Source: Malacoraja senta
Taxonomy: Eukaryota
Length of the DNA stretch: 64,000 nucleotides
Assembly: GCA_038087875.1 (NCBI GenBank)
Contig: CM075992.1
Location: 9,984,001-10,048,000, forward strand
Direction: 5' to 3'
Position numbers and translations under genes: made by a program. This document shows, in pieces, positions 890-64,000 of this stretch. Positions within the stretch are counted from its first letter, which is position 1. The number at the start of each line of letters is the position of its first letter. The notes beneath the pieces are model-generated. The model was not told the origin of the DNA. It saw only the letters and a program-made list of their open reading frames with translations, and made no database searches.

Positions 890-1072
890 CCATTTTCACA
901 CCTTGCCCTTCCATATCTCTCATTTCCCTCTCCCCTGACAGTCTGCAGAAGGGCTCGATCTGAAACGTCACCCATTCCTTCTATCCAGAGATGCTGCCTG
1001 TCCCGCTGAGTTACTTCAGCATTTTGTGTCTATCTTTGGTGTAAACCAGCATCTGCAGTTCCTTCGTACACA
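890..1072 (+). mobile_element. Penelope terminal-repeat (pLTR) fragment with degenerate hammerhead motif
   Basis: Contains gtctgcagaagggctcgatctgaaacgtcacccattcc…gagatgctgcc…cagcatctgcagttcc, the same sequence that terminates the GIY-YIG-coding elements elsewhere in the window. Confidence 0.75.
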
Positions 1073-1095
1073 CTTCTGGTGCATTTTAATTCAGT

Positions 1096-1412
1096 TTCGA
1101 GATACAGCATGGAAACAGGCCCTTCGGCCTACCGAGTCAATGCCGAGCATTGATTATCCATTCACACTAATTCTATGTAATCCCACTATCGCAAACACTC
1201 GCAAAACACAAGGAACAATTTTCAGAGGGCCAATGAACCTACAAATCCGCACGACTTTGGGATGTGGGAGGAAACTGGGGCATTCGGAAGAAACCTACGC
1301 AGTCACAGAGGGAACGTTAAAACTCCACACAGACAGCACTCGAGGTCAGAATGGAACCCGGGTCTCTGGTGTTGTGAGGTAGTGCACTACCAGCTGTGCT
1401 ACAGTGCTGCCC
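1096..1412 (-). mobile_element. tRNA-derived V-SINE (HE1-like)
   Basis: On the - strand it has A/B-box-like head, V-domain-like core and a gggccgaagggcctgtttcc-type tail shared with CR1/HER1. Confidence 0.75.
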
Positions 1413-2399
1413 TAATCAATAATTTGTACAGATGGAACACTCAGATGCACAGCTTCACATGATGCTATTCACTTATTACAAAATAATTTGAATACATAAG
1501 AATTTCATTGTTCTGTTTCGGGACATATGACATTAAAAACATTCTTGGCGCTTGAAAAGATAGCTGCAATCTTTAGGTAGTATTTGTTCCATTTACAGAT
1601 TTTACAGATTATATTATAAACTTTGCCATTCATTACTCTAAAAATCTATGTCATGGATATTTAAATTAAACGTTGGACACAAGTAAGATTGCAGTGTTTT
1701 AGAACAGAACTTCTCCACAAAAATATAAACTGCATCTGGCCGAATTCTAATGGCTGTTGTAGGTAAACAATTCAAGTACTCATATAAATGTATGCCCACA
1801 CTGTCTGCATGCACATAAGCCAACCCTGTGATCTGATTTTTTTAAATGTCTCCCAAATGATTCTGTGAAATGTTGTGGTCTCTAGTTAGCTCATCCTAAA
1901 AGGCTCGAGTTATCCCCATTTTCAAACTTGACACATTGTAAGTCAGTTTTAATGTGACTGCAACTTGTAGCTGTCTGCTAATTAGGAGGACCTGCCATTG
2001 CATTTTCATTATAGATTCAAGTTATCGTGATAAGGGATTGATTTAAGACCTGACAATAAATTAAGCTAATTTATCTTAAACGAAAGCCACATAAATCAAG
2101 CATGTTGATGAAAACAAAATAGTTAGATTCAAGATGGTCTATTATCTTTCAATAGATTTGCTTGATGACAAGTGACTGTTGGCAGTATGATTATTAAATT
2201 AAAAACTATAGCTGTCATCCTTTAATTCATGGCCAACAACACAAAATGCTGTAGGAAAGAACTGCAGATGCTGGTTTAAATTGAAGATAAACACAAAATG
2301 CTGGAGTAACTCAGCAGGACAGGCAGCATCTCTGGAGAGAAGGAATGGGTGACATCTCTGGAGAGAAGGAATGGGTGACGAGACCCGAAATGTCACCCA

Positions 2400-3856: not shown

Positions 3857-4176
3857 ATTCTTCTCTCCAGAGATGATGCCTGTCCAGCTGAGTTACTCCA
3901 ATAATAAATGGTGTGTACTTGTGCTTATGAGAAATAATGAATAAAATGAAACAATGTTCAAGATGTAAAGACCACATTCCAATTCGTATTTAAATGCAGT
4001 TAATTAACTTTTCAGTTTCACATCATGATTAATTGGACAGCAGGAATTTCACCTTTGCGTATTTGATCGGATTGTAGGGCTATGTTGTTGCAACAAATAG
4101 TTTTACAACGAGGATTATACCTTGAGATTGAATTATGTGTGTCTAAGAATGACATTTTTGTTCTTTACTCATGCAG

Positions 4177-4261
4177 ATGTGATAGCAGAGAGAACGGTCG
4201 TTGATGGCTCTGCCTTGCCTCCAGTTGAAGCAGGTGAAAATATGCAGGACATGCCACATAA
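4177..4261 (+). CDS. ZNF653: ZNF653 internal coding exon (linker region upstream of the zinc fingers)
   Basis: Acceptor ttctttactcatgcag and donor AA|gtgagt. The 85 nt are open (xVIAERTVVDGSALPPVEAGENMQDMPHK), and the phase-2 end joins exon 19022 in frame (AA|A = Lys). The sequence is non-repetitive; its protein similarity cannot be recognised directly. Confidence 0.72.
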
Positions 4262-4817
4262 GTGAGTGTTAAGTTAATGCTTTGGTGATTAGGGCATTAG
4301 GTTTTCTTCTTGTATTATATTCCCAAAGAATCTCACGTTTCAACAAGCCTATGTTTTTAAAGTACCTATTGTATATTTACCTTGACTGATAAGGCAAAGT
4401 AGACAGCAATGACAATTATTAGTACTGTCGGGATCAACAATTCAGAAATATATGTTTATATTCAGGAATATATATTGCATCTTTTGCAATAGACATGTGG
4501 TTGACCACAATGCCCTATGCCAAATATGATGCCAAATGTAGATATTTGTACTGGGTTAGCAAGAGGGGTTTGTTGGCTTTAGATTTCAAGTGTCTGGGAC
4601 AACTGTGTGGTTTCCGTATCTAATTTCTTCAGTGATTTATCCTCGCATTAGATTTGCCCTGGTAGAATTGTCTGAGTCTTATTGAGTCTTGTATGTAGCA
4701 AGTGATGCTCGGGCAAGCGTGAAATAGCTCTGAGGACGTAACCCATGAATAGATTATTGACATTAAGCAATTGCAGTATGGTGAACAAAACAATTAAAAG
4801 CAGGGTTTTTTTTCAAT

Positions 4818-7800
4818 GGAAGACAAAAATACTGGAGAAACTCAGCGGGTGAGGCAGCATCTATGGATCGAAGGAAATATGCAATGTTTCGGGTCGAAAC
4901 CCTTCTTCAGACTGATGTGAGGGTGGGGGGGGGAGGGGGAGAAGAAAGGAAGAGGTGGAGCCAGTGGGCGGAGGGAGAGCTGAGAAGGGGAGGAAAAAGA
5001 AGGGCCTACCTGAAATCAGAGAAGTCAATGTTCATACCGCTGGGGTGCAAACTGCCCAAGCGAAATATGAGATGCTGTTCCTCCAATTTACGGTGGTCCT
5101 CACTCTGGCCATGGAGGAGGCCCAGGACAGAAAGGTTGGATTCGGAAGGGGAGTTGAAGTGCTGAGCCACCGGGAGATCAGTTTGCTTATTGCGAACCGT
5201 GCGGAGGTGTTCGGCGAAGCGATCGCCAAGCCTGCGCTTGGTCTCACCAATGTAGAGCAGCTGACATCTAGAGCAGCGGATGCAATAGATGAGGTTGGAG
5301 GAGGTGCAGGTGAACCTCTGCCGCACCTGGAAAGACTGCCTGGGTCCTTGAATGGAGTCAAGGGGGGAGAAAAAGCGACAAGTTAGTATTTCATGCAGTT
5401 GCAAGGGAAAGTGCCCGGAGAGGGGGTGGTTCGGGTGGGAAGGGACAAATTGACCAGGGAGTTCCGGAGGGAGCGGTCTCCGCGGAAAGAAGACAGGGGA
5501 GCAGATGGGAAGATGTGGCAAGTGCTGGGATCACATTGGAGGTGGCAAAAATGTCAGAGAATTATTTGTTGTATGTGACGGCTGGTAGGGTGGAAGGTGA
5601 CGACAAGGGGGACTCTGCCCTTTTGTTGCGAGTGGGGGTATGGGGAGTGAGAGCAGAGTCACCGGGTATAGAAGAGACCCATGTGAGAGCCTCATCTATA
5701 GTAGAAGAGGGGAACCCCTGTTCCCTGAAGAATGAGGACATCTCCGATGCCCTGGTGTGGAACACCTCATTCTGGGTGCAGATGCAGCGTAGACGGAGGA
5801 ATTAGGAGTAGGGGATGGAGTCCTTAGAGGAAGCAGAGTGGGGAGAAGTGTAATCCAGATAGCCATGGGAGTCAGTGGGTCAGTAGTATTATCACCTGCG
5901 ATGGAGATAGTGAGGTCAAGAAATGGTGGGGAAATGTCGGAAATGGTCCAGGTGTATTTGAATGCCGGATGGAAGTTAATGGTGAAATGGATGAAGTCAG
6001 TGAGTTGTGTGCGGGTGCAGGAGGTAGCACCAATGCAGTCGTCGATGTAGTGGAGGTAGATTTCGGGGATAGGGCCACGGTACGCCTCGAACAAGGATTG
6101 TTCGACGTACCCAACAAAGAGGTGGGCATAGCTGGGGCCCATGCGCGTGCCCATAGCTACGCCTTGTATTTGGAGGAAATGGGAGGAGTCAAATGAAAAG
6201 TTATTAAGGGTAAGGACCAGCTCCGCTAGGCGGAGGAGAGTATCAGTAGACGGGGTTTGGTTGGTTCTACGGTCAAGGAAGAAACGGAGGGCTTTGAGAC
6301 CCTCCTGGTGGAGGATGGAGGTGTAGAGTGACTGGACATCCATGCTGAAGATGAGGGAATGGGGGCCTGGAAAACGGAAGACCTGGAGTAGATGAAGAGC
6401 GTGGGAGGTGTCTTGAACATAGGTAGGGAGGGATTTAACCAGGGGGGATAGGATGGAGTCGAGGTATGTGGAAATTAGTTCGGTAGGACACGAACAGGCA
6501 GAAACAATGGGTCTGCAAGGACAGTCAGGTTTGTGGATTTTGAGAAGAAGGTAAAATCGGGCCGTGCGGGGCTGGGGAACGATGCGATGAGGTTGGAGGC
6601 TTGGGAGGGCAGGGAGCCGGAGTTGATGAAGTCAGTGATGGTGCTAGAGATAGTGGCCTGGTTCTCGTCTGCGGGGTCATGGTGCACGGATAAGTAGGAG
6701 GAGGTGTCTGATAGTTGGCGCTTGAGTTGGCGGGATGTCAGCGTGCCAGACTACCACGGCACCTCCCTTGTCGGCAGGTTTGATCACCCAGTCTGGGTTG
6801 TTGCAGAGTGAGTGGGGGGCTGTACGTTTGGGGGGGGAGAGGTTAGAGTGAGACAGGGGAGTGGAGAAGTTGAGACGGTTGATGTCCCGCCGGCAGTTTA
6901 AAATAAAATGGTCTAATGGTAGATGGCCATAAAGTGGAGTCCAATAGGAGGGGGTCCGTTGGAGACGGGAGAAGGCATCATCACTGGGGGGCGAGGACTC
7001 CTTCCCATGGAAGAACGCTTTGAGGTGGAGGAAAGGGAAGAAGAGCTCCACTGTGGCGGGCGCGGAGCTCATTGAGGTGGGGACGTAGGGGAAGAAAGGT
7101 GAGGCCTCTGCTGTGGACAGACCATTCGGTATCAGAGAGGGGGAGTTCAGGGGAGATGATGAACACACAGCAAAGATGGGGGTTGGGGCCGGAGGAAGGC
7201 AGGTGAGTGGACTGAGGTCGAGGCGATGTCTGGTGGGGGGGGGGGGTGGTGGGTGGTCAGGGAGGAAGGGGGTATGAGGACTATAGTGTGGGTGGGGAAG
7301 AGCTGGGGTCACATGGTATGAGGGGGAAGGGGAAGACCCCGTGGAACAACCACTGAGGTTCCCTGGGCTAGGGTGACTAGCACTAAGACCCAGCACAGTC
7401 AGAGCCCGTGATGTTAGAGTCTGCAGCGTGGAGACTTCAGGCCCGGTGCTGAGCCTAGGACTCGGGTAAGGCGACGGCTGCGGCCTTCTGGAGAGCGGTG
7501 GAGTGGCGAGGATTGGGAGAGTTGATGGTGGAGGCCCACGGGGAGTGTAGTCCGGGTCAGCGGGTGAAGCGTAGGACGTCCCGGTCAGCGGATGGTCGGT
7601 GAGGCGGCGAGATCCGGCGGTCCCGGTGAGGCGGCGAGGTTCGGCGGTACCGGTGAGGTGGCTATGTTCGGCGGTCCCAGTGAGGCGGCTATGTTCGGCG
7701 GCCCCGGTGTGGCGGCGAGGTTCGGAGGTCTCGGTGAGGTGGCTATATTCGGTGGTCCCAGTGAGGCGGCGAGATTCGGCGGTCACGTTATTGGTGGCGA

Positions 7801-9100
7801 TAGTCGGAGGAATCGGGGAGGTAGCGAGGGTCGGCATAATCGGTGAGGGGGCGATAGTCAGAGTTATCGGTGAGGCAGCGAAGATCGGCGTCATCGGTGG
7901 GCAGGTGAAGGTCGGCGGCAGCATTGACGTGGAGGTCGGTGTCCTCGGTGGTCCGGGCCTGAGGTCGGTCAGGGAGGCGGTGAGTGCTGGTGCTGCTCCT
8001 CGTGGCCAAGATTGCGTCGTGGGGCTCGGGCAGGCGGCGCGGGCCAGAGTTGGGGCCCGGGGCCTGCTGGTGGTCGAGTCGCAGAGTGTTGGTGGCAGGA
8101 GCGGCCAGGAGGCGGGCGAGTTTCAGGTCCTTGGTGTTAAGGTGGGCCAGGAATCGTTGATTGAAGATGTGGATCTTCCGTAGGATGAAGTAGAGTTGGG
8201 GTCTGTTGCAGGTCTGGGTGAGTGAGGCCTGAAGTTCCGGGAGAGTCAAAGCGAGGTCCTTCTGGTGTCAGCGCATCACAGCCAGAGTAGATCTCAGTGC
8301 CCGAAAGGAAAATTGCCGTGTATGGCGGCAGATAGCCCGTCGGTATCTATACTTCAGGTTGGGTCCGAACTGGGAGGTAGGGAACTGGAGCAGGAAGCCA
8401 TGAGGTACAAGATGGAGGCACAGGCATGTCCCGAGAAATCGAACGTGGCTGTGGTATCGGGTCTGGGTTAGGATGTGGTCGTAGAGTTGGAGGGAAGGGG
8501 GAATCACAGAGGGTGGGCAGTGAGAGAGGAGGTTGTGAAACTGTCTTCGGAGGGAGGAGGAGAACTTCTTCCAAGCTGGCATACCGTGAGGAGATTTCGC
8601 AGTGGAGTCGACAAAATGTTTAAGAAGGAACTGCAGATGCTGGAAAATCGAAGGTAGACAAAAATGCTGGAGAAACTCAGCGGGTGAGGCAGCATCTATG
8701 GAGCGAAGGGAATAGGCAACGTTTCGGGTCAAATCCCTTCTTCAGACTGATGTGAGGGGGGGTGGGGCGGGAAGAAGAAAGGAAGAGGTAGAGCCAGTGG
8801 GCTGAGGGAGAGCTGAGAAGGGTAGGAGAAAGAAGGGACTACCTGAAATTAAAGAAGTCAATGTTCATACCGCTGGGGTGCAAACTGCCCAAGCGAAATA
8901 TGAGATGCTGTTCCTCCAATTTACGGTGGTCCTCACTCTGGCCATGGAGGAGGCCCAGGACAGATAGGTTGGATTCGGAATGGGAGGGGGAGTTGAAATG
9001 CTGAGTCACCGGGTGATCAGGTTGGTTATTGCGAACCGAGCGGAGGTATTCGGCGAAGCGATCGCCAAGACTACGCTTGGTCTCACCGATGTAGAGGATC
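4818..9100 (-). mobile_element. Near full-length Penelope-like element (RT plus GIY-YIG endonuclease), frameshifted, with tandem pLTR structure
   Basis: ORF pieces: N-terminus (8268-8732), Pro-rich region (6677-7924), RT with QGVAMGTRMGPSYA and YIDD (5696-6343), and GIY-YIG NLIYCIRC…LYIGETKR (5006-5521). The endonuclease 3' part and terminal repeat are duplicated at 8617-9100. Confidence 0.93.
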
Positions 9101-9259
9101 ACCCATGTAGAATCTTTTTTTTTTTCAATGATTCATTAGTTCATCTAAAATGGGATTGCTCAAAATGGTTGGAAAATGTATAATTTTTTGGCTAAAGTAC
9201 AGCTTTGTTTAATCAGGCCTGGTTACACAGGCTGATTATTTACAAAGACAGACTGATGG

Positions 9260-9775
9260 TTTGTGCAGGAAAGAACTGCAGATGCTGGTTTAAATCAAAG
9301 GTAGACACAAAATGCTGGAGTAACTCAGCGGGAATGGGTGACATTTTGGGTCGAGACCCTTCTTCAGACTGATGTCAAGGGAAGGTGCGGGACATAGATG
9401 GAATGTAATCAGAGACAGTAAGACTGGTGGGAGAACTGGGAATGGGATGGAGAGAGAGAGGGAAAGCAAGGGCTATTTGAAGTAAGAGACGTCAATATTC
9501 ATACCGCTGGGGTGTAAGCTACCCAAGCGAAATATGAGGTGCTGGTCCTCCAATTTGTGCTGGGTCTCACTCTGACAATGGAGGAGGCCCAGGACAGAAA
9601 GGTCAGATTGGGAATGGGAGGGGAGTTAAAGTGCTGAGCAACTGGGAGATCAGATAGGTTAAGGCGGACTGAGCGGAGGTGTTCAGCGAAACGATTGCCG
9701 AGCCTGCGCTTGGTCTCGCCGATGTTCAGGAGTTGACACCTGGAACAACGGATACAGTAGATGAGGTTGGAGACC
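9260..9775 (-). mobile_element. Penelope 3' fragment (GIY-YIG plus pLTR)
   Basis: Encodes SNLIYCIRCSRCQLLNIGETKRRLG and carries the terminal repeat. Confidence 0.85.
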
Positions 9776-9784
9776 GATGTTTTA

Positions 9785-10090
9785 AGGGCCTGTCCCACTG
9801 TACGAGCTAATTCAAGAGTTCTCCCGAGTTTCCCCTGAATCGAACTCGGAGAATTACGGTAATAGCCGCTCGTAGGTACTCGGGGCTCTCGTGGACATTT
9901 TTCACACTGTTGAAAAAACTTCACGAGCTTACTGCGTTTCCAAAGTACCTGCTGTTAGCGTTACGAGCTGCTAAGAGACGTCCCGAGCTCCGACGTACCC
10001 GCTACGTACATTCTACGTACTTACCACGAGTTTGATTTTTTAAAAACTCGGTAGAACCCTTGGGTAAACTCGTATAATGGGACAGGCCCT
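9785..10090. mobile_element. PIF/Harbinger-type MITE
   Basis: TIRs AGGGCCTGTCCCA…TGGGACAGGCCCT with longer imperfect inverted arms. TTA TSD at 9782-9784 and 10091-10093. Confidence 0.88.
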
Positions 10091-10344
10091 TTATCGCTTA
10101 TGGGAAAGAAAATTGACGTCTAACATCCAGTTACAGATTTTTCATTTCAGCTTGGAAGTGGCAGGCAAAAAGGAAAGTTTTTTTTCTCCCTACAATTATA
10201 ACAATTTGATGAATGACAGGCTGAAGCCCATGTGGCTTCTGATCTGACCTCGGTCCTCCTTTGGTTGTATGCCCCCTCTCCCATATTTCACCCCCCTGAT
10301 TTCATCCATTTACTTCATACATTTCACTCACGGGCTTTCCCTTA

Positions 10345-10562
10345 GGGCTGGCACAATGGCATACCAGTAGAGCTGTTGCCTTACAGCACCAGAGTCTCGG
10401 CTTCAATCCTGACTACGGGTGCTGTCTGTACGGAGTTTGTACGTTTTCATGTAACCATGTCGGTTTCCTCCAGGGGGCTCTGGTTTCGTTCAACAATCCA
10501 GAAACATGCAGATTTGAAGTTTAATTGGCTTCAGTAAAAATTGTAAATTGTCCCTAGTATGT
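10345..10562 (+). mobile_element. V-SINE (HE1-like), 3'-truncated
   Basis: Head ggctggcacaatggc…tagagctgttgccttacagc…ggcttcaatcctgact followed by the V-domain. Confidence 0.75.
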
Positions 10563-10894
10563 ACGATTTAACTTCAGATGAAATTTCTTTGGAAAAATCT
10601 CTTAATAATCCAGACAGATAAGAAGTAATTTATTTAGTTTAGATTTGTGACCTTTATCCGTCCATACTAACCAAGATGCCCCATGAGCTAGTCCAATTTG
10701 TCCGTGTTTGGCACTATCGCTCTAAACCTTTCCTATCCATGTACTTGTCAAAATGTATTTTAAATGCTCTTCTCGTACCTTCCAAAGCAGCCCTACCATG
10801 AGGAACCTTATCAAAGGTCCATAGAGACAACATCCATAGAGACAACATCCACTACCTTGCCCTCATCAACCATTTTCAGTTACTTCTTCAAAAG

Positions 10895-12410
10895 CGGGGC
10901 CCGCCGACCCTCACCGGCCATCCGCTGACCGGGACTTCCGACGCTTCGCCCACTGACCCGGACTCCACTCCCCGCGGGCCTCTACCAGTGGCTCTACCGA
11001 CCCTTGCCACTCAACCGCCCACCAGCAGGCCGCAGCCATTGCCTTACCTGAGTCCTTGGCTCAGCTCCGGGCCTGGGCCCCAGCTATGCCTGCCTCTTTG
11101 TAGGGTACATCGAACATTCCTTGTTCGAAGCGTCCCGTGGCCCTATCCCCGAACTCTACCTCCGCTATATTGATGACTGCATTGGTGCTACCTCCTGCAC
11201 CCATGCAGAACTCACTGACTTCCATTTCACCACTAACTTTCATCCGGCACTCAAATTCACCTGGACCATTTCCGACATCTCCCTACCGTTTCTAGACCTC
11301 ACTATCTCCATCGCAGGTAACAGACTACTGACTGACATCTACTACAAACCCACTGACTCCCATGGCTATCTGGACTGCACTTCTTCCCACCCTGCTTCCT
11401 ATAAGAACTCTATCCCCTACTCCCAATTCCTCTGTCTACGCCGCATCTGCACCCAGGATGAGGTGTTCCAAACCAGGGCATCGGAGATGTCCTCATTCTT
11501 TAGGGAACGGGGGTTCCCCTCTTCGACTATAGATGAGGCTCTCACCAGGGTCTCTTCTATATCCCGTAGTTCCGCTCTCACTTCCCATCCCCCCCACTCA
11601 TAACAAGGAGAGAGTCCCCCTTTCCTCACCTTTCCACCCTACCAGCCGTCACATACAACAGATAATCCTCTGACATTATCGCCACCTCCACCGGGATCCC
11701 ACCACTGGTCACATCTTCCCATCTCCTCCCCTTTCGGCTTTCCGCAGAGACCGTTCCCTCGGTAACTCCCTGGTCAATTTGTCCCTTCCCACCCAAACCA
11801 CCCCCTCCCCTGGTATTTTTCCTTGCAACCGCAGGAAATGCTACACTTTAAATGCTACGCTTTACCTCCTCCCTTGACTCCATCTAAGGACCCAAGCAGT
11901 CTTTCCAGGTGAGGCAGAGGTTCACCTGCACCTCCTCCAACCTCATCTATTGCGTCCGCTGCTCTAGGTGTCAACTGCTCTACATCGGTGAGACCAAGCG
12001 CAGGCTTGGCTATCGCTTCGCCCACCACTTCCGCACAGTTCGCATTAACCAACCTGATCTCCCGGTGGCTCAGCACTTTTTCCTTTCCCCCTCCCATTCC
12101 GAATCCGACCTATGTGTCCTGGGCCTCTTCCATGGCCAGATTGAGTCCCACTATAAATTAGAGGAGCAGCACCCCATATTTCGCTTTTACACCCCAGCGG
12201 TATGAACATTGACTTCTCCAATTTCAGGTAGTCCTTGCTTTCTCCCACCTTCCCCTCCCCTTCCCAGCTCTCCCACAGCCCACTGTCTCCGCCTCTTCCT
12301 TTCTTGTTCCTCCCCCCCCCCCCACCCCCACATCAGTCTGAAGAAGGGTCTCTACCCGAAACGTCACCTATTCCTTCGCTCCATAGATGCTGCCTCGCCC
12401 GCTGAGTTCC
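10895..12410 (+). mobile_element. Penelope element, internally deleted (RT C-half, GIY-YIG, pLTR)
   Basis: ORFs 11121-11603 (YIDDCIG) and 11909-12205 (GIY-YIG). Terminal repeat carries CTGAAGA…GAAACGTC. Confidence 0.9.
12336..12368 (+). ncRNA. Minimal type I hammerhead ribozyme motif in Penelope pLTR
   Basis: GT-CTGAAGA-A-GGGT-ctct-ACCC-GAAA-CGTC-AC: conserved core, stem II, palindromic ACGT stem III and GUC triplet. Stem I is only about 2 bp. Confidence 0.65.
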
Positions 12411-13455
12411 TCAAGACCACTGAGATCTCTTCTTGGCAGGGGTGACCTGTACAAAAGGGACAGGTTGCACCTTAATTGGAGGGGGACTGACATTCTGGCA
12501 GGCAGGTTGGCTTGTGCTACACGTGTAAGTTTAAACTAAACAGTGGGGGGGGGGGGTTGGGGTCAACAATGTGCAAGCATATGCGTGCAGTTAGCGGGAA
12601 AGAGAGTGTAGGATAGGTCACGTTTAAACTAATAGGGCAGGGGTATGGGAACCAGTGCAAGGAGACAGGGCCATAAAAGGAGGACAGAAGGAAAAGGTAG
12701 AAGGGAGAAAAGAAAAACAAACCTGAAAGCCTTGTGCCTTAACGCGAGGAGCATTCGCAATAAGGTGGATGAATTGAATGCGCAGCTAGTACTTAACGGA
12801 TATGATATATTTGGGAATTACGGAGACATGGCTCCAGGGTGACCAAGGCTGGGAGCTAAACGTGCTGGGGTATTCAATATTCAGGAAGGATAGACAGAAA
12901 GGAAGAGGAGGTGGGGTGGCATTGCTGATTAAAGAGGAGATTAATGCAATAGTAAGGAGAGACATTAGCTTAGATGCTTTAGAATCTGTATGGGTAGAAC
13001 TAGCCAAGGGCAGAAAACGCTTGTTGGAGTTGTATACAGACCACCAAGCAGCAGTAGGGAGGTTGGGGATTGCATTAAGTAGGAAATTAGGGATGCGTGT
13101 AGCAAAGATACAGCAGTTATCATGGGTGACTTTAATCTACATATAGATTGGGTCAACCAAACTGGTAACAGCACTGAGGAGGATTTCCTGGAATGTATAC
13201 GGGGTGGGTTTTTAAACCAATATGTAGAGGACTTGACTAGAGGGCAGGCCATCCTAGACTGGGTATTGTGTAATGAGGAAGGATTAGTTAGCGATCTTGT
13301 TGTGCAATGCCTCTTGGGCAACAGTGACCATAATATGGTGCAATTCTGCATTAGGATGGAGAGTGACATGGTTAATTGAGAGAGTAGTGCCCTGAAATTA
13401 AAGAAAGGAGACTTTGAAGGTATGAGACGGGAATTGGCCAGGATAGACGGGCAAA

Positions 13456-14070
13456 TCTATACATAACTAAAGCTCTCTTGTTATCTTCTGGTTGCGCGGT
13501 CATTCTATTTTTGCAAAAACGTTACGCGATAGCGTTACGATTTTTCGCCAGCTTACCGTTCTCCGGTGCTGCGATTGCACCAAGTTTCGTTCCAATCGGT
13601 GGGCTAATGTAAACGTTAGCGAGGATTAAAAATAATAAAATCCGCGCGTGCGCAGATCGATCTCTCCTGCCGTTCAGCACTGCGTGGATTGGTCTTTTCT
13701 CCTGTCACTCCGCGGTACGGTCCACCCTTTCCTGCGTCATCGCTTCTTTACTGGAGCTGTGGCTGGCCGGCGGAGATTTCCAACCGGACACAATTTTCGG
13801 AGAAAACAGCCTGGCCCGGCGTGGGAAATGTCGCCAAACGGAAAGCGGAGAACCTGATCCCGGTGAAGGAGAACGACCAGCGGTCCAGCGACCAGCGACC
13901 GCTGTGAGTCCGCTCCAGCCCCTTCCCCTCTGGTCCCCCTCGCTGCCCCCTGCCCCCCTCCCCCGTGATAGCCCCCACAACCCCCATCTTTACTCTGAGC
14001 TTTCTCCCTCCTGCCCCCGCAACCCCCCTGCCCCCGCAACCCCCCTGCCCATATACCACCCGGGGGAGGG
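13456..14070 (+). mobile_element. Non-autonomous Helitron 5' fragment nested in CR1
   Basis: Begins A|TCTATACATAACTAAAGCTCTCTTG, similar to the starts at 2400 and 43290. No 3' hairpin or CTAG was found. Confidence 0.7.
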
Positions 14071-15515
14071 AGGAACTGATGCAATGGCAAGGATTTAAAG
14101 TTCGCATAGATGAACCCCAAAAATTGTTCATCCCTGTCTGGCGAAAAAATAAAACTAGAAGGCGGCTCAACCATGGCTAACAAGGGAAATGAAGGATTGT
14201 GTTAAAACCAAGGAAGAGGCATATAAAATGGCCAGAGGAAGCAGCAAGCTGAAGGACTGGGAGAAATTTAAAATTCAACAGAGCAGGACAAAGGGGTTAA
14301 TTAAGAGGGGGTGGGGGGGAGAGCATGAACGAAAGCTTGTGGGGAATATAAAACTGACTGTAAAAGCATCTTGAGATATGTAAAAAGGAAAAGATTAGTG
14401 GAGACATATGTAGGTCCCTTGCAATCAGAGACAGGTACATTTATAATGGGAACAGGGAAATGGCAGAACAGTTAAACGAGTACTTTGTTTGTGCTTTCCT
14501 TAGTGAAGACAGAACCAATCTCCCAGAAATACTAGGGGACTGAGGAACTAGTGGGAGGGAGGAACTGAAGGGAATTCGCATTAGTCAGGAAATGATGTTA
14601 GGTAAACTGTTGAAACAGAAGGCAGATAAATCCACAGGGCCTGATGGTCTGCAGCCCAGAACTACTCAAGGAGGTGGCCCTGGATATTGTGCATGCATTG
14701 GCGATCATTTTCCAATGTTCTATAGACTGGATCAGTTCCTGTGGCAGGGTAGCAAATGTAACTACACTTTTTAAGAAAGGAGGGAGAGAGAAAATGGGGA
14801 ATTATAGACCAGTTAGCCTTACATCGGTAGTGGGGAAGATGCTTGAGTCAATTAGTAAAGATGTAATAGCAGCGCATTTGGAAAGCAGTGGCAGGATCGG
14901 TCAAAGTCAGCATGGATTTATGAAGGTGAAATCATGCTTGAATAATCTTCTGGACTTTTTTGAGGATGTAACAAGTAGGATGGATAAGGAAGAGCCAGTG
15001 GATGTGGTGTATCTGGACTTTCAAAAAGCCTTTGACAAGGTCCCGCACAAGAGATTAGTGTGCAAAATTTGAGCACATGGTATTGGGGACAGGTTATTGA
15101 CATGGATAGAGAACTGGTTGGCAGACAGGAAGCAAAGATTAGAAATTAACGGGTCCTTTTCAGAATGGCAAGCAGTGAATAGTGGGGTGCCGCAAGGCTC
15201 GGTGCCGGGACCCCAGTTATTTACAATATATATTAACGATTTATACGAGGGAATTAAATGTGAACATCTCCAAGTTTGCGGATGACACAAAGCTGGATAG
15301 CAGTGTGAGCCGCGAGGAGGATTTAATGATGCTGCAGGGTGACTTGGATAGGTTGGGTGAGTGAACAAATGCATGGCAGATGCAGTATAATGTGGATAAA
15401 TGTGAGATTATCCACTTTGCTGGCAAAAACAGGAAGGCAGATTATTATCTGAATGGTGTCAGATTAGGAAAAGGGGAGATGCAATGAGACCTGGGTGTGC
15501 TTATACATCAGTCAC

Positions 15516-17790: not shown

Positions 17791-18195
17791 ACGATTGGAG
17801 GGAATTTTCTGCTGATTCATATGGTGTTTACAATGACATAGTACAAAATAAGTCATTGGCAAAACTTTTCCCATTCGTTCAATGCGTTCTTACAGAGTGT
17901 CCATGTTTTGCCTTTGTACATGACGTGGGTAAAATAGCTTTTAGAAGGCCATGGGTGACGGAAATTGTAACTCCGACTCCACCCAATGGTAGAAATAAGC
18001 AACTGCAGGAGGAACCATATACCTAAATTAAAGAATAGGATGACAAAGCATTTATAGCAGGTAATAGGTTATTCTTTGTTCTTCACACGGACCTTTCCTC
18101 CCTGTCATCTCAACCTCCCTGTCATCTCAACGCCTTATCCTTCTTTTACTTTCACTTTCATGTGTTTGTTTGGCTCTCTGTTAAATGATCTCATT

Positions 18196-51136: not shown

Positions 51137-51203
51137 AAACTTGTCATAGAACTGGAGAAGGTAAATAAGTCAGCCCAGGTCCGTTTCTGGTCATTGTTGC
51201 AGC

Positions 51204-51363
51204 ACAAAATTCAGCAGGGACACAAAAGAAGAAATTAAGGAAATAGCCCTCCCATTTTGCACAATGCGACAAGATTACCTCACCAGAGGTAATCTTGTCG
51301 CATTGTGCAAAATGGGAGGGCTATTTCCTTAATTTCTTCTTTTGTGTCCCTGCTGAATTTTGT
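51204..51363. repeat. Perfect inverted repeat, 78-bp arms, 4-nt spacer
   Basis: 51204-51281 is the exact reverse complement of 51286-51363; the loop is ACCA. Confidence 0.95.
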
Positions 51364-52067
51364 TGCCCCCCCTTTTTGGGTTGATTCTCCAGAGTTGGAG
51401 AAAAGGGAGTAAATGGGATCAGCTTGGTGTGTGTGCCAGCCAGGAGTGTTATAACTGGTGGTGGAGGTGTTCTTGGACTGCAAAGGTAAGTCAGCCAACG
51501 AACCCTGTTCACATATGGGAACTAACCATATCTCACAAAAGACTGATTTCTGGGGAAATTTGAAATGGATGGTTTAGTGGTTTATGTAAAGATATTGAAA
51601 TAAATTGGAAAAGAAAAATAAATACATGGGTTAAATAATGTGGGGGGTGAGCTGATGAGTGCATGTTTCAAACCAGTGAAATGTGAAAATGTAAGTCATA
51701 TTTATCTAGTTCCTTTTCCAGCCTCAAAAAGAATTATGCTTGAAGTTTACTCTCTGTACATAAGGCATTACATAAGTTTACATAAGGCAACGTGGTATCA
51801 ATATGGGAGCGGTCAGATTGCACAAATAGTGGGGTGATGGTGACCAGGCAATAGTTGATGATGGGACACAAGCTTACAGCAGCATTGGGGCTGAAGGGCC
51901 CTTTTACTGGAACAACAAAAGAGGGAAAGGACAGGCCCATAAACTAGACGTGGCAGGAGCACTCAGTCTTGTACAGGCAATGTCTGGATTACTGGGAGCA
52001 AGAAGGGCAGAATGGCCAGGGGGAAATGGGGAATAGATTTATTAAATATGACGAAGTTCCAGGGTTA

Positions 52068-52696
52068 TAGACAATAGACAATAGGTGTAGGAGTAGGCCA
52101 TTCAGCCCTTCGAGCCAGCACCGCCATTCAATGTGATCATGGCTGATCAACCCCAATCAATACCCCGTTCCTGCCTTCTCCCCATATCCCCTGACTCCGC
52201 TATCTTTAAGAGCCCTGTCTAGCTCTCTCTTGAAAGTATCCAGAGAACCGGCCTCCAGCGCCCTCTGAGGAAGAGAATTCCACAAACTCACAACTCTCTG
52301 TGAGAAAAAGTGTTTCCTCGTCTCCGTTCTAAATGGCTTACCCCTTATTCTTAAACTGTGGCCCCTGGTTCTGGACTCTCCCAACATCGAGCACATGTTT
52401 CCTGCCTCTAGCGTGTCCAAACCCTTAATAATCGTAATTGTTTCAATAAGATCCCCTCACATCCATCTAAACTCCAGAGTATACAAGCCCAGCCGCTCCA
52501 TTCTCTCAGCATATGACAGTCCCGCCATCCCTGGAATTAACATTGTAAACCTACGCTGCACTCCCTCAATAGCAAGAATGTCCTTCCTCATATTAGGGGA
52601 CCAAAACTGCACTCAATACTCCAGGTGTGGTCTCACTAGGGCTCTGTACAACTGCAGAAGGACCTCTTTGCTCCTATACTCAACTCCTCTTGTTAT
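52068..52696 (-). mobile_element. CR1/HER1 3' fragment
   Basis: ORF 52157-52420 and an (aatagac)n tail. Confidence 0.9.
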
Positions 52697-52744
52697 ATCA
52701 TGAGACAGAATTGCAGGAACTAGGATTGGATTTCAGGGAAAATG

Positions 52745-53650
52745 TGTAGGAAGGAATCACGGTTGTTAGTTTTCATCAAAGATAAACATAAAAAGCTGGA
52801 GTAACTCAGTGGTCAGGCAGCATCTCTGGAGAAAAGGAGTAGGGACAGATGTTACATCTCCTGCCGTTGCAGACTCATCCCTTCCCGCCCAAAACCACCA
52901 CCTCCCCAGGTACCATCCCCTGGAACCGCAGATGCAACACCTTATTCGTCCTTATTCGTCCTCCTCGACTCTGTCCAGGGACCCCAACAGCCCTTGCAGG
53001 TGAGGCAGAAGTTCATTTGCACCTCTTCCAACCTCATCTCCTGTATCTGCTGTTCCAAGTGTGGTCTCCTACATATTGGGGAGGCCAAGCGATCGCCTCT
53101 AAACACCTAAACACCACTGAACAGTCCGCCTTAGCCAACAGGTTAACCTATTAGTCTGTCAGTTGCCAAACAGTTTAACTCCCCTTCCTATTCCCACACC
53201 GACCTTTCTGTCCTGGGCCTCCTCCATTGTCAGAGTGAGGCCCAGTGCAAATTGGAGGAACAGCATCTCATAAATCGCTTGGGCAGCTTACACCCTAGTG
53301 GTATGAACATTGACTTCTCTAACTTTAAGTAACCCTTGCATCCGCTCTCTCTCTCCGTCTCTCCCCCACCCCAGTCGTCGTACTAGTTTGACTGTCGTCC
53401 TGTTGAGTTTCAATGTTTATATAGCTCGTTGTCACCTTCCCCACAGCCAATAATCGACCTTTCCTTGATCATAGTTGCTTTTTGCTGATCTTTCATTAAT
53501 TTGTTCTATGTTTGTTCTTTATCTCACATCTCCCTCTCTCCTGACTCTTAGTCTGAAGAAGGGCCTCGACCCGAAACGTCACTTATACCTTTTCTCCAGA
53601 GATGCTGCCTGACCCACTGAGTTACTCCAGCTTTTTGTGTCTATCTTTGG
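52745..53650 (+). mobile_element. Penelope 3' fragment with inverted 5' pLTR
   Basis: Inverted pLTR at 52745-52840, GIY-YIG remnant, and pLTR with CTGAAGA…GAAACGTC at 53553-53580. Confidence 0.85.
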
Positions 53651-53969
53651 ATTTCAGGGAAGGTGGGTGATCTGATTTGATTGAGGTTTTGGTGCGGAGG
53701 GAGAAAACATTTCCACTGCTTGGGGGATCGAGAATAGGGGAGGAGGGATTGAGGTACATGGTCTAAAAATTAGAGCTAGTCCTTACGGGAGTAAAATGTG
53801 GAAACACCTGCACAGTAAAAAATAGGTAATAATTGGAACTCTTTGAAAAACACCTGTTAATCTGTATTAGGTCTACCATTAGGGATATCAAAAAAGTGAT
53901 CTGAGGTTTAATTTCTTCCCACTCTAGTGAGTATTTTGGGATAACAGGTTGCTCTGCAAGGGAAGGGAA

Positions 53970-54285
53970 ATAGACACAAAATGCTGGAGTAACTTAGCGG
54001 GTCAGGCAGCATCTCTGGAGAAAAGGAATAGGTGACGTTTCAGGTGGAGACCCTTTATCAGACTGAGAGTCAGGGAGCAGAACACTTGAGGAATGGGAAG
54101 GTACAGAACAAAGCAGAGCCTGCATCGAAGACTCAGGAAAGATGGAGCCCACAATGGTCCACTGTTGGCTGGGGATGAGGTGAAGGAATACAAACGTTGA
54201 AATTAACAAGGGGACTAGGGTGGGGGAGGGACGGCGTGAGGGCGAATACAAGGGTCACTTGAAGCTCGAGAAATCAATATTCATG
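53970..54285 (-). mobile_element. Penelope pLTR fragment
   Basis: Same terminal repeat, with a mutated hammerhead core. Confidence 0.75.
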
Positions 54286-54404
54286 AATGGTAACTTGGTT
54301 GCATTGAACTAAGTTAGCTTTTCCACCGACAATTACTGATGAGCCTGTACTGAATTAAAGATCAGAATTTGAACAATGCCAAGCATGAATGAGGTTAATT
54401 CGTT

Positions 54405-54686
54405 TAGAGATAGTGTGGAACCAGGCCCTTCGGTCCACCAAGTCCTGGAACCAGGCCCTTCAGTCCACCAAGTCCTGTGCTGACCAGCGATCCTTACACT
54501 AACCTACACACACTAGGGACAATTATATCGTCAATTAATTTACAAACTTGAACGTGGGAAGAAACTGAAGCATCCAGAGAAAACCCACGCAAATCACTGG
54601 GAGAACGTACAAACTCCGAACACACAGCACCCATAGTCAGGATGGGTGCTGTAAGGCAGCAACTCTACCGCTGCACCACCATGCCG
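54405..54686 (-). mobile_element. V-SINE with internal 30-bp tandem duplication
   Basis: SINE motifs on the - strand; ggaaccaggcccttc(g/a)gtccaccaagtcct occurs twice. Confidence 0.78.
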
Positions 54687-54727
54687 TCTTTAAATATTTA
54701 TTGGGCTTTTCTCCTTTTTGTTTGCAG

Positions 54728-54905
54728 GTGTGAAATCTGTGGATATCAGTGTCGACAGAGAGCTTCACTAAACTGGCACATGAAGAAACACGACACGGAA
54801 ATACAGTACAACTTCACCTGTGAATACTGTGGCAAGAAGTTTGAAAAAATGGACAGTGTCAAGTTTCACAAGTTAAAAAGTCACCCTGAGTGTCAGACCA
54901 TGTGA
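54728..54905 (+). CDS. ZNF653: ZNF653 terminal coding exon: ZF4 and ZF5, stop
   Basis: Acceptor ctcctttttgtttgcag. Encodes CEICGYQCRQRASLNWHMKKHDTEIQYNFTCEYCGKKFEKMDSVKFHKLKSHPECQTM*, with TGA at 54903-54905. Matches the recalled C-terminus of ZNF653 (ZFP91/ZNF692/ZNF276 family). Confidence 0.96.
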
Positions 54906-59660: not shown

Positions 59661-60184
59661 TCCTCCAGGCTTGGCATTCAGGCCAAAGAGTTCAATCTTG
59701 ATTTCATCAGTCCAGAGAATCTTGTTTCTCATGGTCTGAGAGTCCTCTAGGTGACTTTTGGCAAACTCCCAAGTGGGCTGTCATGTGCCTTTTATTGAGG
59801 AGAGGCTTCTGTCTGGCCACTCTACCATAAAGGCCTGATTGGGGGAGTGCTGCAGATATAATTGTCCTTCTGGAAGTTTCTCCCATCTCCACAGAGGAAC
59901 ACTGGAGCTCTGTCAGTGACCATCGGGTTCTTGGTCACCTCCCTGACCAAGGCCCTACCCCCCCACTTGCTCAGTTGGGCCGGGTGGCCAGCAGTACGAA
60001 GAGTCCTTGTGGTTCCAAAGTTCTTCCATTTAAGAATGACGGAGGCCACTGTGCTCTTCGGGACCTGCAATGCTGCATAGATTGTTTTATACCCTTCCCC
60101 AGATCTTGTCTCGGAAGTCTAAGGACAATTCCTTCGTCTTCATGGCTTGGTTTTTGCTCTGACATGCACTGTCTAATTCTTATA

Positions 60185-61089
60185 GGTCGGTGGGGGCGCT
60201 GCGAGCCGGCAGCCCTGCCAGCAACGTGTTAGTTTTTTCTACTCTTTTTATTTATTAAGTGTGTCTCAATGTGTGTTTTTAATGTTTCTCTGTGTGTCCT
60301 GTGTGGGGGTGCAAGGGGGAAACCGCTTTGGTCGCCTCCTCCATGGAGAGGCGACTTTTTCCATGTCGCCTCCCCCGTGGCCTAACATCGAGGATCGGTG
60401 CGGCCTTTCCTGGAGAAGCGCCTGAGGCTTCAGCCACGGGTGCAGCGTGGACTCTCGTCGCGGAGCGGGCGAACCCTCGCCGGAGGGGAGCGCTCCATTC
60501 GCTGGCCCGCGGCAGCCTGAAGCCGCGGTCTGCGGAGCTCCATCTGGCGCTGCATCCGGAGCCTGGGATCCCTCGTTGGGGACCCCGGTGGAGAAAAGCT
60601 CCGACCGCCAGCCCGCGGCCTACTCTAACCGCGGGTGCGGCGGGGACTTACCATCCGGAGAGGGGTCCCTCGCCGGGGATCCCTGGAGAGGAGCTCCGAC
60701 CGCCGGCCCTGCGGTCTGCGGTGCTTCTGGCTGCGGCGCGGCGGGGACATTAGATCTTCCACCGCCGGCCTACGGCCTACACCAACTTGAAGCCGCGGTC
60801 TCCGGTGGGTAAGCACCGATTCAGGATTTACCTGGACATATCTTGTCTGCACATCTGGATGGCCGCAGCGGCGACTGAGGAGGGTTGTGGTCCCGACCAC
60901 AGGGGAAAATGGAGGAGGACTGACCAAATTGTTGTGCCTTCCACCACAGTGATGAAATCTGTGGTGTGATGGTTGTGTTAAATTTTTATTGTGTATTGTG
61001 TGTTCTTTTTTTATTGTACTGCTGCTGGCAAATTCATTTCACTGCACTGTATGCAAGTGACGAATAAAACTTGACTTAACTTGACTTGA
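60185..61089 (+). mobile_element. Non-autonomous CpG-rich retroelement with LINE-type (CTTGA)n tail, nested in Tc1
   Basis: TATA TSD (60181-60184, 61090-61093). The 3' end is AATAAAA followed by cttgacttaacttgacttga. No recognisable coding domain. Confidence 0.7.
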
Positions 61090-62627
61090 TATAGACAGGT
61101 GTGTGCCTTTCCAAATCATGTCCAATCAATTTAATTTACCACTGGTGGACTCCAATCAAGTTGCAGAAACTTCCCAAGGATAATCAATGGAAAAAATATG
61201 AATGCTTATGTAAATGTGATATTTCAGTTATTTCTTTTTAATTACTTTGCAAACATTTCTAAACACCTGTTTTTACTTGTGTGTAGATTGATGATAAAAA
61301 AATTTAATTTAATCCATTTTAAAATAAGGCAGTAACGTAACAAAATGTGGAAAAAGGGGTCTAAATACTTTCTGAATGCACTGTAATTGTTCCAATTTCC
61401 AGAATTGGCTCACATTAGTAAGCAGTCTTGAGATGGGTCCCCACCCTTTTTCTCCAGAGATGCTGCCCGACTTACCGAGCCATTCCAGCACCGCGTGTCT
61501 TGTTCATTCATCAACCAAGGCAGAGAGTGGTAGTGGAGCCATGAGTATGGAACCAGACAGTGGGAAAATGTCCTAAACTCTGGTGTATGGATCTTCCCTT
61601 TCCCACACAGTTCTCCTCCTTCCCGACCCATCCCCACTCCTCCCCCGTCCACTCCCGTATATCCTTCCCTTCCCAGCATTCTCTCCCAACTCCGCACGGC
61701 AGTTTTAGGAGAATGCTTTTCTAATTTGAAATGCATTTATCCTTTCTCCTATTACCTATTAACTCATCCGAAGAAAATCAATTGAAGTTCTGAAATGCTC
61801 CGTGTTCTGTTAATAATGTACTATTACGCTTCGTAATTTAGTTGCTTTAACTAGATTATTTTATTTGCACAAATTTCACTCAGAAGTAGTGATTTGAAAT
61901 ATGTGTTGAAATCTGTAAACTTTAATTATATCAGCTGAAGAATCACCCCTTAGAAAAATACCCAAAGTAGATTTGTACAGTTTTTACGGTCTTTTGGATG
62001 TGATGCACCTTATGTCTAAAACTGCCACATGCAATGACATTGCAGGTAGCTGATTGGAGTGGGACCCATGCATGATTCATTTGTGATGGCCATTTTAAGC
62101 TACTGATTCACAGGGGCTGTTAGACGATGTCTTCAAAGTTTAGTAGTTGCATTTCATAAATGGTAGGGAGCAGAATTAGGCCATTAAGCCCTTCAAGTCT
62201 ATTCAGTCATTCAATCACTGCTGATCTGTCTCTCCCCCCTAACCCCATTATCCTGCCTTCTCCCCATAACCTCTGACACCCGTACTAATCAAGAATCTAT
62301 CTATCTCTGCCTTAAAAATATCCATTGACTCAGCCTTCACAGCCTTCTGTGGCAATGAATTCCACATGCATTCCTGCAGTGAGCATTCATAAGAGCCATT
62401 TGTAAAACTAAACACTGCGAAAAAGAAATCTTAGACATTAATGTTGGTTTAACTTCAGGACCTCTATGCGTCTGCAAAGATCAGCATTTATTTCCCATCT
62501 CTACTTGCACATGACGTTAGGATTAAGCTACCTTCTTGAGCTGCTGCAGTCCTTTTGGTGAAGGTGCTTCCACAGTGCTATTGGGAATGGAGTTCCAGGA
62601 TTTAGACTCAACCATGATGAAAGACTG

Positions 62628-64000
62628 GTGTGCAAGGAGGAACGGCAAATGATGATTTAAACCAAAGACAGACACGAAAAGCTGGAGTAACGCAGCAGGT
62701 GAGGCACCCATCTCTGGAGAAAAGGAATAGCTGCCGTTTCGGGTTGAGACCGTTATTCAGACTGAAGCCAGTGGAAAGGGAAATAGATATAGACGATAAA
62801 TAGGATAAATGATTGGCAAAAAGCAACGGTAATCAAGGAAAGGTAGAGGCAACAAGAGTCCTTGTTGGATGTGGGATAGGTGATAATGAGTTATGCAAAC
62901 AGATTCGACAGGGTGACAGTAAAACTAGTACAACGAATAGGGTGAGGGGGGGATGGAGAGCAGATACAAGGGTTACTCGAAGTTAGAGAAATAATAATCA
63001 TACCGCTGGGTTGTAAGCTGCCCAAGCGAAGTATGAGGTGATCTTCCTCCAATTTGTATTTGGCCTCACTCTGACTATGGAGAAGGGCCAGGACAGAAAG
63101 GTCAGTGTGGGATTGGGAAGGGGAGTTAAACTGTTTGGCAACTGGGACATCACATAGGCCTAGGCAGACTGAGTGAAAGTGTTAAGCGAAACGATCGCAT
63201 AGTCTGCACTTGGTCTCGCCAATATATAAGAATCCACACATTGAACAACGGAAACAGAAGATGACGTTACAAGGAGGAGATGCAAGTGAACTTCCGCCTC
63301 ACCTGAAAGAAACATGGAAACATAGGTGCAGGAGTAGGCCATTCGGATCATTGAGCCAGCACAGCCATTCAATATAATCATGGCTGATCATCTAAAATCA
63401 GTACTGCTTTTTCCCCATATCCCTTTATTCCTTTAGCACAAAGAGCTAAATCTAACTAACTATTGGACACATCCAGTGATTGGCTCCCAATGCCTTCTGT
63501 GTTAGAGAATTCCACAGATGCACAACTCTGGGTGAAGAGGTTTTTCCTCATCTCAGTCCTAAATGGCCTTTTTCTTAAACTGATCCCTGGTTCTGGACTT
63601 CCCCCAACACCAGGTACATTTTTCCTGCATCTAGTCTGTCGAATCCTTTAGGAATTGTATGATCCCCTCTCATCCTTCTAAATTCCAGTGAATACAAGCT
63701 CAATTGACCCATTCTTTCATCATATGTCATTCCCGCCATCCCGGGAATTCAACCTACGCTGCACTCCCTCAATAGCAAGAAACCCTTCCTCAATTTAGGA
63801 GACCAAAATTGAACACAATACTCCAGGTGCGGTCTCACAAAGGCTCTGTACAACTGCTGTAGGATTTTGCTCCTAAACTTAAATCCTCTCGCAATGAAGG
63901 CTAACATGCCATTAGCTTTCTTCACTGCCTGCTGTACCTGCATGCTTAAAGGACCTGGATGGAGTCGAGGGAGGAGATATCGGGACAGGTGTTGCATCTC
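62628..64000 (-). mobile_element. Penelope fragment interrupted by a CR1 fragment (63305-63947)
   Basis: pLTR and GIY-YIG remnant at 62628-63305, resuming after 63947. CR1 RT C-terminus lies in between. Confidence 0.82.

What the first reader, a model, noticed from the sequence alone, without database searches (positions are those of the whole stretch)
941..62762. About a dozen minimal hammerhead-ribozyme motifs dispersed by Penelope terminal repeats
Seen: the motif GT-CTGAAGA-N-[stem II]-GAAA-CGTC recurs at about 941(+), 4882-4912(-), 8718-8747(-), 9340-9369(-), 12336-12368(+), 23451(+), 32709-32740(+), 37558(+), 45555(+), 53551-53583(+), 54033-54063(-) and 62734-62762(-). Copies at 12338, 32711, 53553 and 8718 keep the CUGANGA/GAAA core and the ACGU palindrome; most others are mutated. 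Established: Penelope-like elements carry minimal type I hammerheads thought to cleave as dimers. Inference: these skate-type copies have an extra base after A9 and a very short stem I (2-3 bp), so they may be a distinct variant. Short non-coding pLTR-only copies may behave like retrozymes.
Basis: partly seen in the sequence, partly recalled or inferred. Interest (0 to 1): 0.72.

Follow-up and report, generated by a model that had tools for sequence, protein, structure and literature searches.

The report
Skate Penelope stubs carrying minimal hammerheads
These motifs are real but mostly decayed copies of a tiny, predicted self-cutting RNA already known from Penelope-like jumping genes, sitting at the ends of broken insertions in a skate gene's introns; they are not a new variant, although their shortest copies likely mark where the element's RNA starts.

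Summary
Observation confirmed: all 12 motifs are present, plus two more. They are the minimal type I hammerhead in the terminal repeat (pLTR) of Neptune-type Penelope-like elements. One near-full element (4813-9111, RT plus GIY-YIG) has one at each end, and 8 of the 12 still follow the end of the ORF. The 'distinct variant' claim fails. The base after A9 and a 2-3 bp stem I are the published consensus (PMC4209133, text and supplement), and all 37 structural hits in related loci have the extra base. Stems covary across families, but within the window the core is no better kept than the 3' flank (p=0.53). Only 1 of 14 copies is intact. The retrozyme idea is unsupported: no tandem units, and copies span the cut site. 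A side result is that stubs begin at the ribozyme's 5' edge, behind initiator- and TATA-like motifs, so the RNA likely starts there. The scan reported this family and that reading before on other shark and skate DNA. Cleavage was not tested. Verdict: new member of a known kind, low interest.

The parts
4813..9111 (-). Near-full Neptune-type Penelope-like element in partial tandem: 5'-truncated ORF end + pLTR (9111-8613), broken ORF (first ATG 8582, RT about 6631-5900, Cys linker, GIY-YIG 5383-5009), 3' pLTR (5008-4813)
   Evidence: Pfam RVT_1 E 2.7e-6 and GIY-YIG E 9.3e-5; self-map; terminal repeats 420 of 458 identical; RT 83% to a Leucoraja protein
8715..8748 (-). Minimal hammerhead of the upstream pLTR (C3=8745, predicted cut 8718|8717, GUU); core intact, stem II 3 of 4 pairs
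4880..4913 (-). Minimal hammerhead of the downstream pLTR (C3=4910); palindrome mutated to ACAU
9262..9772 (-). 5'-truncated copy of another subfamily with long tail; hammerhead C3=9367, G12 mutated, 27-nt deletion downstream
10895..12415 (+). 5'-truncated copy (RT part, GIY-YIG, spacer) ending in the only fully intact hammerhead, 12335-12368, predicted cut 12365|12366
21868..23700 (.). Complex insertion: inverted pLTR (22002-21868, -), truncated ORF + pLTR (22224-23568, +, hammerhead C3=23452), short inverted piece (23600-23557), further stub (C3=23607, +); all hammerheads mutated
905..1075 (+). Stub: about 35 nt of spacer, mutated hammerhead (C3=943), long tail
32623..32803 (.). Inverted tail piece (32678-32623, -) plus a stub that starts at the A three bases before C3 (32708, +); core intact, stem II 3 of 4
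37555..37651 (+). 97-nt stub starting at the hammerhead's 5' edge with G at position -3, flanked by a 9-nt direct repeat (37546-37554 and 37652-37660); core mutated
45515..45650 (+). Stub with about 40 nt of spacer and a mutated hammerhead (C3 position 45557)
52741..53650 (.). Inverted pLTR piece (52843-52741, -) next to GIY-YIG end, 220-nt spacer and hammerhead (C3=53553, +; core intact, stem II 3 of 4, stem I 3 bp)
53966..54285 (-). Last codons of the ORF, 200-nt spacer and hammerhead (C3=54061; G8 mutated)
62626..63310 (-). 5'-truncated copy with GIY-YIG end, spacer, mutated hammerhead (C3=62760) and long tail; outside the host gene
36584..37184 (+). Fifth subfamily (long spacer), with the 5' half of the hammerhead missing; a second such copy lies at 47055-47549
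4170..54902 (+). Host gene ZNF653: last five coding exons at about 4170, 19020, 32340, 41184 and 54728; 13 of 14 core-bearing copies lie in its introns (8 sense, 5 antisense)

Best explanation
The motifs are minimal type I hammerheads in the terminal repeats of at least five subfamilies of Neptune-type Penelope-like retrotransposons, left as mostly mutated, 5'-truncated insertions in a skate gene's introns; in the active element they likely cut weakly, as dimers or with help from the element's protein. Shown: each ribozyme lies 95-270 nt after the GIY-YIG stop, and copies end about 65 or 100 nt beyond the predicted cut site. Inferred: these two ends are the two internal start points of reverse transcription described for the anole element, so the template was uncut RNA. 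Inferred: a pLTR promoter starts transcription at or near the A three bases before C3. That would cap stem I at 2-3 bp, and reverse transcription of this short leader would run off the RNA's 5' end to give stubs of about 95-135 nt. Longer copies would come from read-through RNA that includes a downstream pLTR. Inferred: the single intronic copies have no close intact partner and decay neutrally.
For: A near-full element has a hammerhead at each end. Eight of 12 listed copies follow ORF-end sequence. In related loci, 29 of 68 with at least 150 nt after the GIY-YIG have the core on the sense strand, against 1 of 68 on the antisense strand. Across 17 chosen sequences, 88.9% of cells pair (shuffled 73.8%, 0 of 500 reach it), 7 of 9 pairs change on both sides, and slid controls pair at most 47%. 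Depth steps up at two 3' ends, near 8617 and 8655, in three runs, matching the tail and uncut-template results of PMC11167929. For a start at -3: 29 contigs of run X16 end at 8748 with heterogeneous flanks; DNA joints use 8748 (to 8617 in 2 and 8 contigs; to 8704 with one extra G in element sense). Window stubs 32708 and 37555 start at -3, the latter inside a 9-nt direct repeat. An initiator match is seen in 8 of 10 copies with native upstream sequence, and TATAWA at -45..-30 in 26 of 33 related hits against 27 of 1620 control windows. For decay: core 143/154 against 3' flank 659/725, p=0.53, and 1 of 14 copies intact.
Against: Cleavage was not assayed. The one-site hammerhead dimer of copy 12338 scores -9.0 kcal/mol against -16.4 for the best dimer fold. 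No RNA end was observed: all 8 run slots laid were contigs and table 6 was empty. The initiator match is partly forced by the ribozyme's own GUCU. The TATA signal comes from one coral-type family (26 of 28 hits; 0 of 5 other families), and the three copies of the subfamily of the near-full element have no TATA-like word. Loose ends at 53550 are confounded by a private substitution at 53549 and by subfamily divergence. The covariation set was hand-picked and its members are related.
Confidence: 0.75

Rival explanations
1. The ORF-to-ribozyme spacer is a retained spliceosomal intron whose acceptor AG sits at the ribozyme's stem I, as in D. virilis Penelope; the conserved YAG before the core is a splice site rather than a transcription start.
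For: In five subfamilies the spacer starts with GT at the last codon and stop (degraded in the two copies of one subfamily), is pyrimidine-rich, ends YAG|TCTGA and varies from about 95 to 270 nt. PMC4209133 reports the D. virilis intron ending at helix I; PMC2377424 describes that 75-bp intron (passages).
Against: No joint skipping the spacer appears among the listed rows (15 of 180; 15 of 610; the tables are cut). Listed RNA-run contigs read from the ORF end into the spacer. Boundaries fall at the A of AG, not after the G. Coral-type relatives have neither the GT nor the AG. The GT can follow from a Lys/Arg codon plus a stop.
Confidence: 0.15
2. The short pLTR-only copies are a non-autonomous retrozyme: tandem units are transcribed, cut by hammerhead dimers, circularised and re-inserted by the Penelope enzyme.
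For: Head-to-tail joints of 132 nt occur in DNA contigs and of 92 and 100 nt in single contigs of two RNA runs. Preprint 10.64898/2026.07.22.740005 reports non-LTR retrozymes in one chondrichthyan and derives retrozymes from pLTRs.
Against: No hammerhead-bearing tandem array in the window. The joints lie at the ribozyme's 5' edge and the tail end, not at the cut site, and the same type exists in DNA. Stubs belong to several subfamilies shared with ORF-bearing copies. Retrozymes of PMC7229834 are 150-450 bp tandem repeats, mostly with canonical hammerheads (passages).
Confidence: 0.07
3. The motif is kept as a folded protein-binding or promoter signal and no longer cleaves in this lineage.
For: Stem I has 2 bp and the dimer fold is disfavoured. 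Hammerhead mutants of the anole element insert normally in vitro, and no RNA-seq reads ended at its cut site (PMC11167929). Naiad elements spread without hammerheads (PMC8557442 passages).
Against: Catalytic positions are shared by distant families while the stems vary with compensation. The anole ribozyme does cleave with protein present, with C3G/G8C rescue.
Confidence: 0.2

Closest known systems
[quoted passage not shown]
   Same: CUGANGA plus one extra base, G10.1-C11.1, GAAA, 4-nt palindrome with no helix III loop, NUH, 2-3 bp helix I, located in the pLTR, mostly dispersed single copies. The Acropora Neptune example printed there matches the family retrieved.
   Different: Own stem sequences (GGGU/ACCC with a YYCG loop; GU/AC stem I). 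No shark or skate entry was found in the searchable supplement (0 hits for Leucoraja, Callorhinchus, shark, skate).
Neptune clade of EN+ Penelope-like elements (PMC8557442, passages read)
   Same: RT, then a Cys-rich linker (C..RCNTC in ORF 22431-23321), then a C-terminal GIY-YIG; partial tandems, adjacent inverted copies, 30-40 bp tail
   Different: No tree was built. The paper gives the same linker to Nematis, so the clade rests on the linker plus the match to the Acropora Neptune hammerhead.
PAc, Poseidon element of Anolis carolinensis (PMC11167929, parts 1-2 of 4 read)
   Same: Hammerhead in the pLTR, two genomic 3' ends defining a tail, copies extending past the cut site
   Different: In PAc the ORF starts inside the ribozyme; here the first ATG lies about 135 nt downstream of the cut site. 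Different clade.
Non-LTR retrozymes (PMC7229834 passages; bioRxiv 10.64898/2026.07.22.740005, parts 1-3 of 5 read)
   Same: Type I hammerhead, non-coding short copies, origin from pLTRs proposed
   Different: Defined by tandem repeats with a hammerhead in each unit and by circular RNA; neither was seen in this window.

Membership tests
EN+ Penelope-like element | Single ORF with RT and C-terminal GIY-YIG | tested here: met
   RVT_1 and GIY-YIG in this order on one strand; the ORF is broken by stops and frameshifts
EN+ Penelope-like element | Partial-tandem pLTRs, inverted adjacent copies, tail extension | tested here: met
   Terminal repeats 420/458 identical; inversions at 21.9, 23.6, 32.6 and 52.8 kb; two 3' ends
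Neptune clade | Cys-rich linker between RT and EN | tested here: met
   Seen in ORF 22431-23321 and in relatives; also shared by Nematis
Neptune clade | Placement in an RT phylogeny | not tested
   No labelled reference set was fetched
PLE minimal hammerhead | CUGANGA-H, G-C closed helix II, GAAA, palindromic helix III, NUH | tested here: met
   Complete in copy 12338 and in the majority state of 14 copies; agrees with the published consensus
PLE minimal hammerhead | Compensatory changes in the helices | tested here: met
   7 of 9 pairs change on both sides across 17 sequences from skate and related families; not demonstrable within the window copies alone
PLE minimal hammerhead | Self-cleavage as dimer or with protein | not testable with these tools
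   Only contigs were available; folding does not favour the active dimer
Rfam hammerhead families | Match to a covariance model | tested here: not met
   No hammerhead family among 10 matches at E<=5
Non-LTR retrozyme | Tandem repeat with a complete hammerhead in at least two consecutive units | tested here: not met
   0 of 45 tandem-repeat rows overlap a hammerhead core; rare head-to-tail joints occur elsewhere in related genomes
Non-LTR retrozyme | Circular RNA joined at the cut site | tested here: inconclusive
   No listed joint closes at the NUH site, but the tables are cut and the data are contigs

The most novel reading that the evidence does not exclude
In skate Neptune elements the hammerhead is the first 35 bases of the capped transcript. 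The start site itself limits stem I to 2-3 bp, cleavage would decap the RNA rather than release a monomer, and the abundant 95-135 nt stubs are run-off copies that record the start site (extra G) and, more rarely, the cut site in the genome.
Probability: 0.4. Interest if true: 0.5.

Novelty: new member of a known kind. Interest (0 to 1): 0.25.

Why it matters
What has value is the size of the record. More than 100,000 contigs per DNA run match one 561-bp pLTR region, so skate genomes hold a large fossil sample of where Penelope reverse transcription starts and stops. If transcripts start at the ribozyme, the open question of what PLE hammerheads do becomes testable with CAGE and cyclic-phosphate sequencing.

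Tried and rejected
Own genome: none held, so no genome-wide count or end histogram. Rfam: no hammerhead match; the miRNA-like hits are fold-backs. Viral contigs: three scans gave no relative. Genome contigs gave one locus, L081. Run search: no RNA holder listed on record. Three of the guessed RNA runs (X17, X20, X23) have contigs that begin at the ZNF653 exon edge 54728, which fits spliced RNA, but contigs cannot show RNA ends. Summed contig depth was not used as copy number or expression. Selection on single copies: rejected (p=0.53; non-CpG p=0.50). Loss of sense-strand copies from the host gene: not seen (8 sense, 5 antisense). In-frame read-through across the ribozyme after splicing: open by eye in one subfamily, closed in that of the near-full element, so dropped. 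Lunse et al. 2017 on dimer cleavage is not held; it is cited only through the review PMC6765202 (passages), and its variant list may bear on novelty. Sequence look-up in earlier findings returned nothing. Six literature searches listed no paper devoted to skate or shark PLE hammerheads or to a start site at the ribozyme; subscription papers and Repbase/Dfam entries were not searched.
Full report
Observation. All 12 sites carry the motif at the stated places. A 23-base pattern with up to three mismatches matches 10 times against 0 in 100 shuffles. Two more core-bearing copies (23607+, 22001-) and about ten partial pieces exist. The 14 core-bearing copies are 81% identical on average (range 70-92%). 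Only 12338(+) has the whole core, four stem II pairs, ACGU and GUC; 8745, 32711 and 53553 have lost one stem II pair. Rfam does not detect them.

Setting. The window lies in ZNF653 of a skate-like ray. The last exon is 98% identical to the Leucoraja protein, and five exons map on the + strand between 4170 and 54902. Thirteen of the 14 copies are intronic, 8 sense and 5 antisense. No genome was held.

The carrier. Positions 9111 to 4813 (-) hold a near-full Penelope-like element: a truncated ORF end and pLTR, a broken ORF with RT and GIY-YIG, and a second pLTR. The repeats are 420 of 458 identical, and each holds one hammerhead. The RT's closest named relatives are from Leucoraja (83%), Mobula (74%) and Amblyraja (71%). 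[quoted passage not shown] Eight of the 12 listed copies still follow ORF-end sequence. Their spacers fall into at least five subfamilies of about 95-270 nt. Inverted pLTR pieces abut copies at 21.9, 23.6, 32.6 and 52.8 kb, the usual Penelope pattern.

Is the fold real? An alignment of nuclease domains retrieved the best 80 of 467 related metagenome stretches and one genome locus. Thirteen of these 81 had under 150 nt downstream and were left out. Of the other 68, 29 have the core on the sense strand, mostly about 105 nt after the ORF, against 1 on the antisense strand. A structural scan gave 37 hits in the 81 loci, 3 in the window and 0 in 10 shuffles of the window; all 37 have an extra base after A9, although the scan tried the form without it first. 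Most loci are one coral-type family, so independent families number about six. I aligned 9 of the 14 window copies with 8 of the 37 hits, chosen for a 12-nt stem II and family spread. On that set 88.9% of cells pair, 7 of 9 pairs change on both sides, no shuffle of 500 reaches this, and slid partners pair at most 47%. The third stem I pair fails in 9 of 17. Within the window the core is no better kept than the flank (143/154 against 659/725, p=0.53), as expected for copies decaying after insertion.

Is it a variant? No. PMC4209133 names the base between positions 9 and 10.1 as a conserved trait and reports a 2-bp helix I in D. virilis. Its supplement gives the consensus NNN CUGANGAH, a 3-bp helix I in Acropora, fugu and coelacanth, and 2 bp in Oikopleura. 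The Acropora Neptune motif there has the same dimensions as the skate one apart from a third stem I pair. No shark or skate entry was found in the searchable supplement files; one file could not be searched.

Is it a retrozyme? Not on this evidence. No tandem array includes a hammerhead. Copies begin before and end 65 or 100 nt after the cut site, and contig depth in three runs steps at the same two 3' ends. This fits the anole element, where the tail lies between two internal reverse-transcription starts and uncut RNA is the main template (PMC11167929). Head-to-tail joints of 92-132 nt occur in a few contigs of both DNA and guessed-RNA runs, but at the ribozyme's 5' edge and not at the cut.

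Where does the RNA start? In one search, 29 contigs of one run end at 8748, the A three bases before C3, with unrelated flanks. DNA joints use the same base, one with a single extra G in element sense. One joint row starts at 8717, the base after the predicted cut; that is a single weak hint. In the window, stub 32708 starts at that A, and stub 37555-37651 starts at -3 with G inside a 9-nt direct repeat. Eight of 10 copies with native upstream sequence match the initiator pattern YYANWYY (recalled consensus; background 1.2%). Coral-type relatives have TATAWA about 37 nt before C3 (26 of 33 hits against 27 of 1620 controls, all from that family). Six of the 10 skate copies have a TATA-like word at -28 to -32, defined after the fact. 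I first noted the spacer as a possible intron: GT at the stop, a pyrimidine tract and YAG at stem I. But no skipping joint was among the listed rows (15 of 180 and 15 of 610), and the relatives lack both sites. The start-site reading is therefore preferred, at moderate confidence. Earlier scan notes on other shark and skate DNA give the same reading; they are unchecked and are not counted as support.

Mechanism. Shown: position, fold, decay and two 3' ends. Inferred: a pLTR promoter fires at the ribozyme; the protein primes reverse transcription 65 or 100 nt past the cut site; short leaders give stubs and read-through RNA gives longer copies. Cleavage needs two ribozymes paired through ACGU, and folding disfavours this state (-9.0 against -16.4 kcal/mol). 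That agrees with the weak dimer activity reported and the protein dependence in the anole element. No cleavage or RNA end was observed here.

Verdict. Interest 0.25; the start-site reading has probability 0.4 and would merit 0.5.

Noticed in passing
window 51232-51335: Near-perfect 104-nt fold-back (arms about 33 nt), scored as miRNA-like by Rfam below threshold; probably a miniature inverted-repeat transposon.
   Followed up: no
window 7575-7920: Two 27-bp tandem repeats inside the Penelope ORF's N-terminal half, in frame as 9-residue repeats; this part is missing in the copy at 10895-12415.
   Followed up: no
window 33010-35733, 58349-59645, 39016-40095, 24284-25392 and others: Many fragments of an APE-type LINE (RVT_1 and Exo_endo_phos hits); 33378-34289 and 58359-59270 are 97% complementary, suggesting recent activity.
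   Followed up: no
window 48623-50847 (+): RT and C-terminal part of a different, AT-rich non-LTR element (RVT_1 E 1e-29), inserted in a ZNF653 intron.
   Followed up: no
window 27783-28295 (+): DDE_3 transposase fragment (Tc1/mariner type).
   Followed up: no
window 32678-32830: About 15-20 nt of the sequence downstream of the stub recur inverted between the stub and its inverted tail piece, like a target sequence copied in reverse.
   Followed up: partly
window 8718-8717 and 23479-23480: The cut-site triplet and next base vary by subfamily (GUC|A, GUC|G, GUU|G), keeping the first stem I pair as U-A or U-G.
   Followed up: partly
L012:1322, L043:1990, L078:1530, L077:1948: Related families carry CCGANGA (U4 to C) as a shared trait; L029 and L081 swap the palindrome to AUAU.
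   Followed up: partly
window 54576-54699: A very high-copy short repeat ends about 30 nt before the last ZNF653 exon (deep contig cover in four runs).
   Followed up: no
window 2723-3184: 30-bp minisatellite, 15.5 copies.
   Followed up: no
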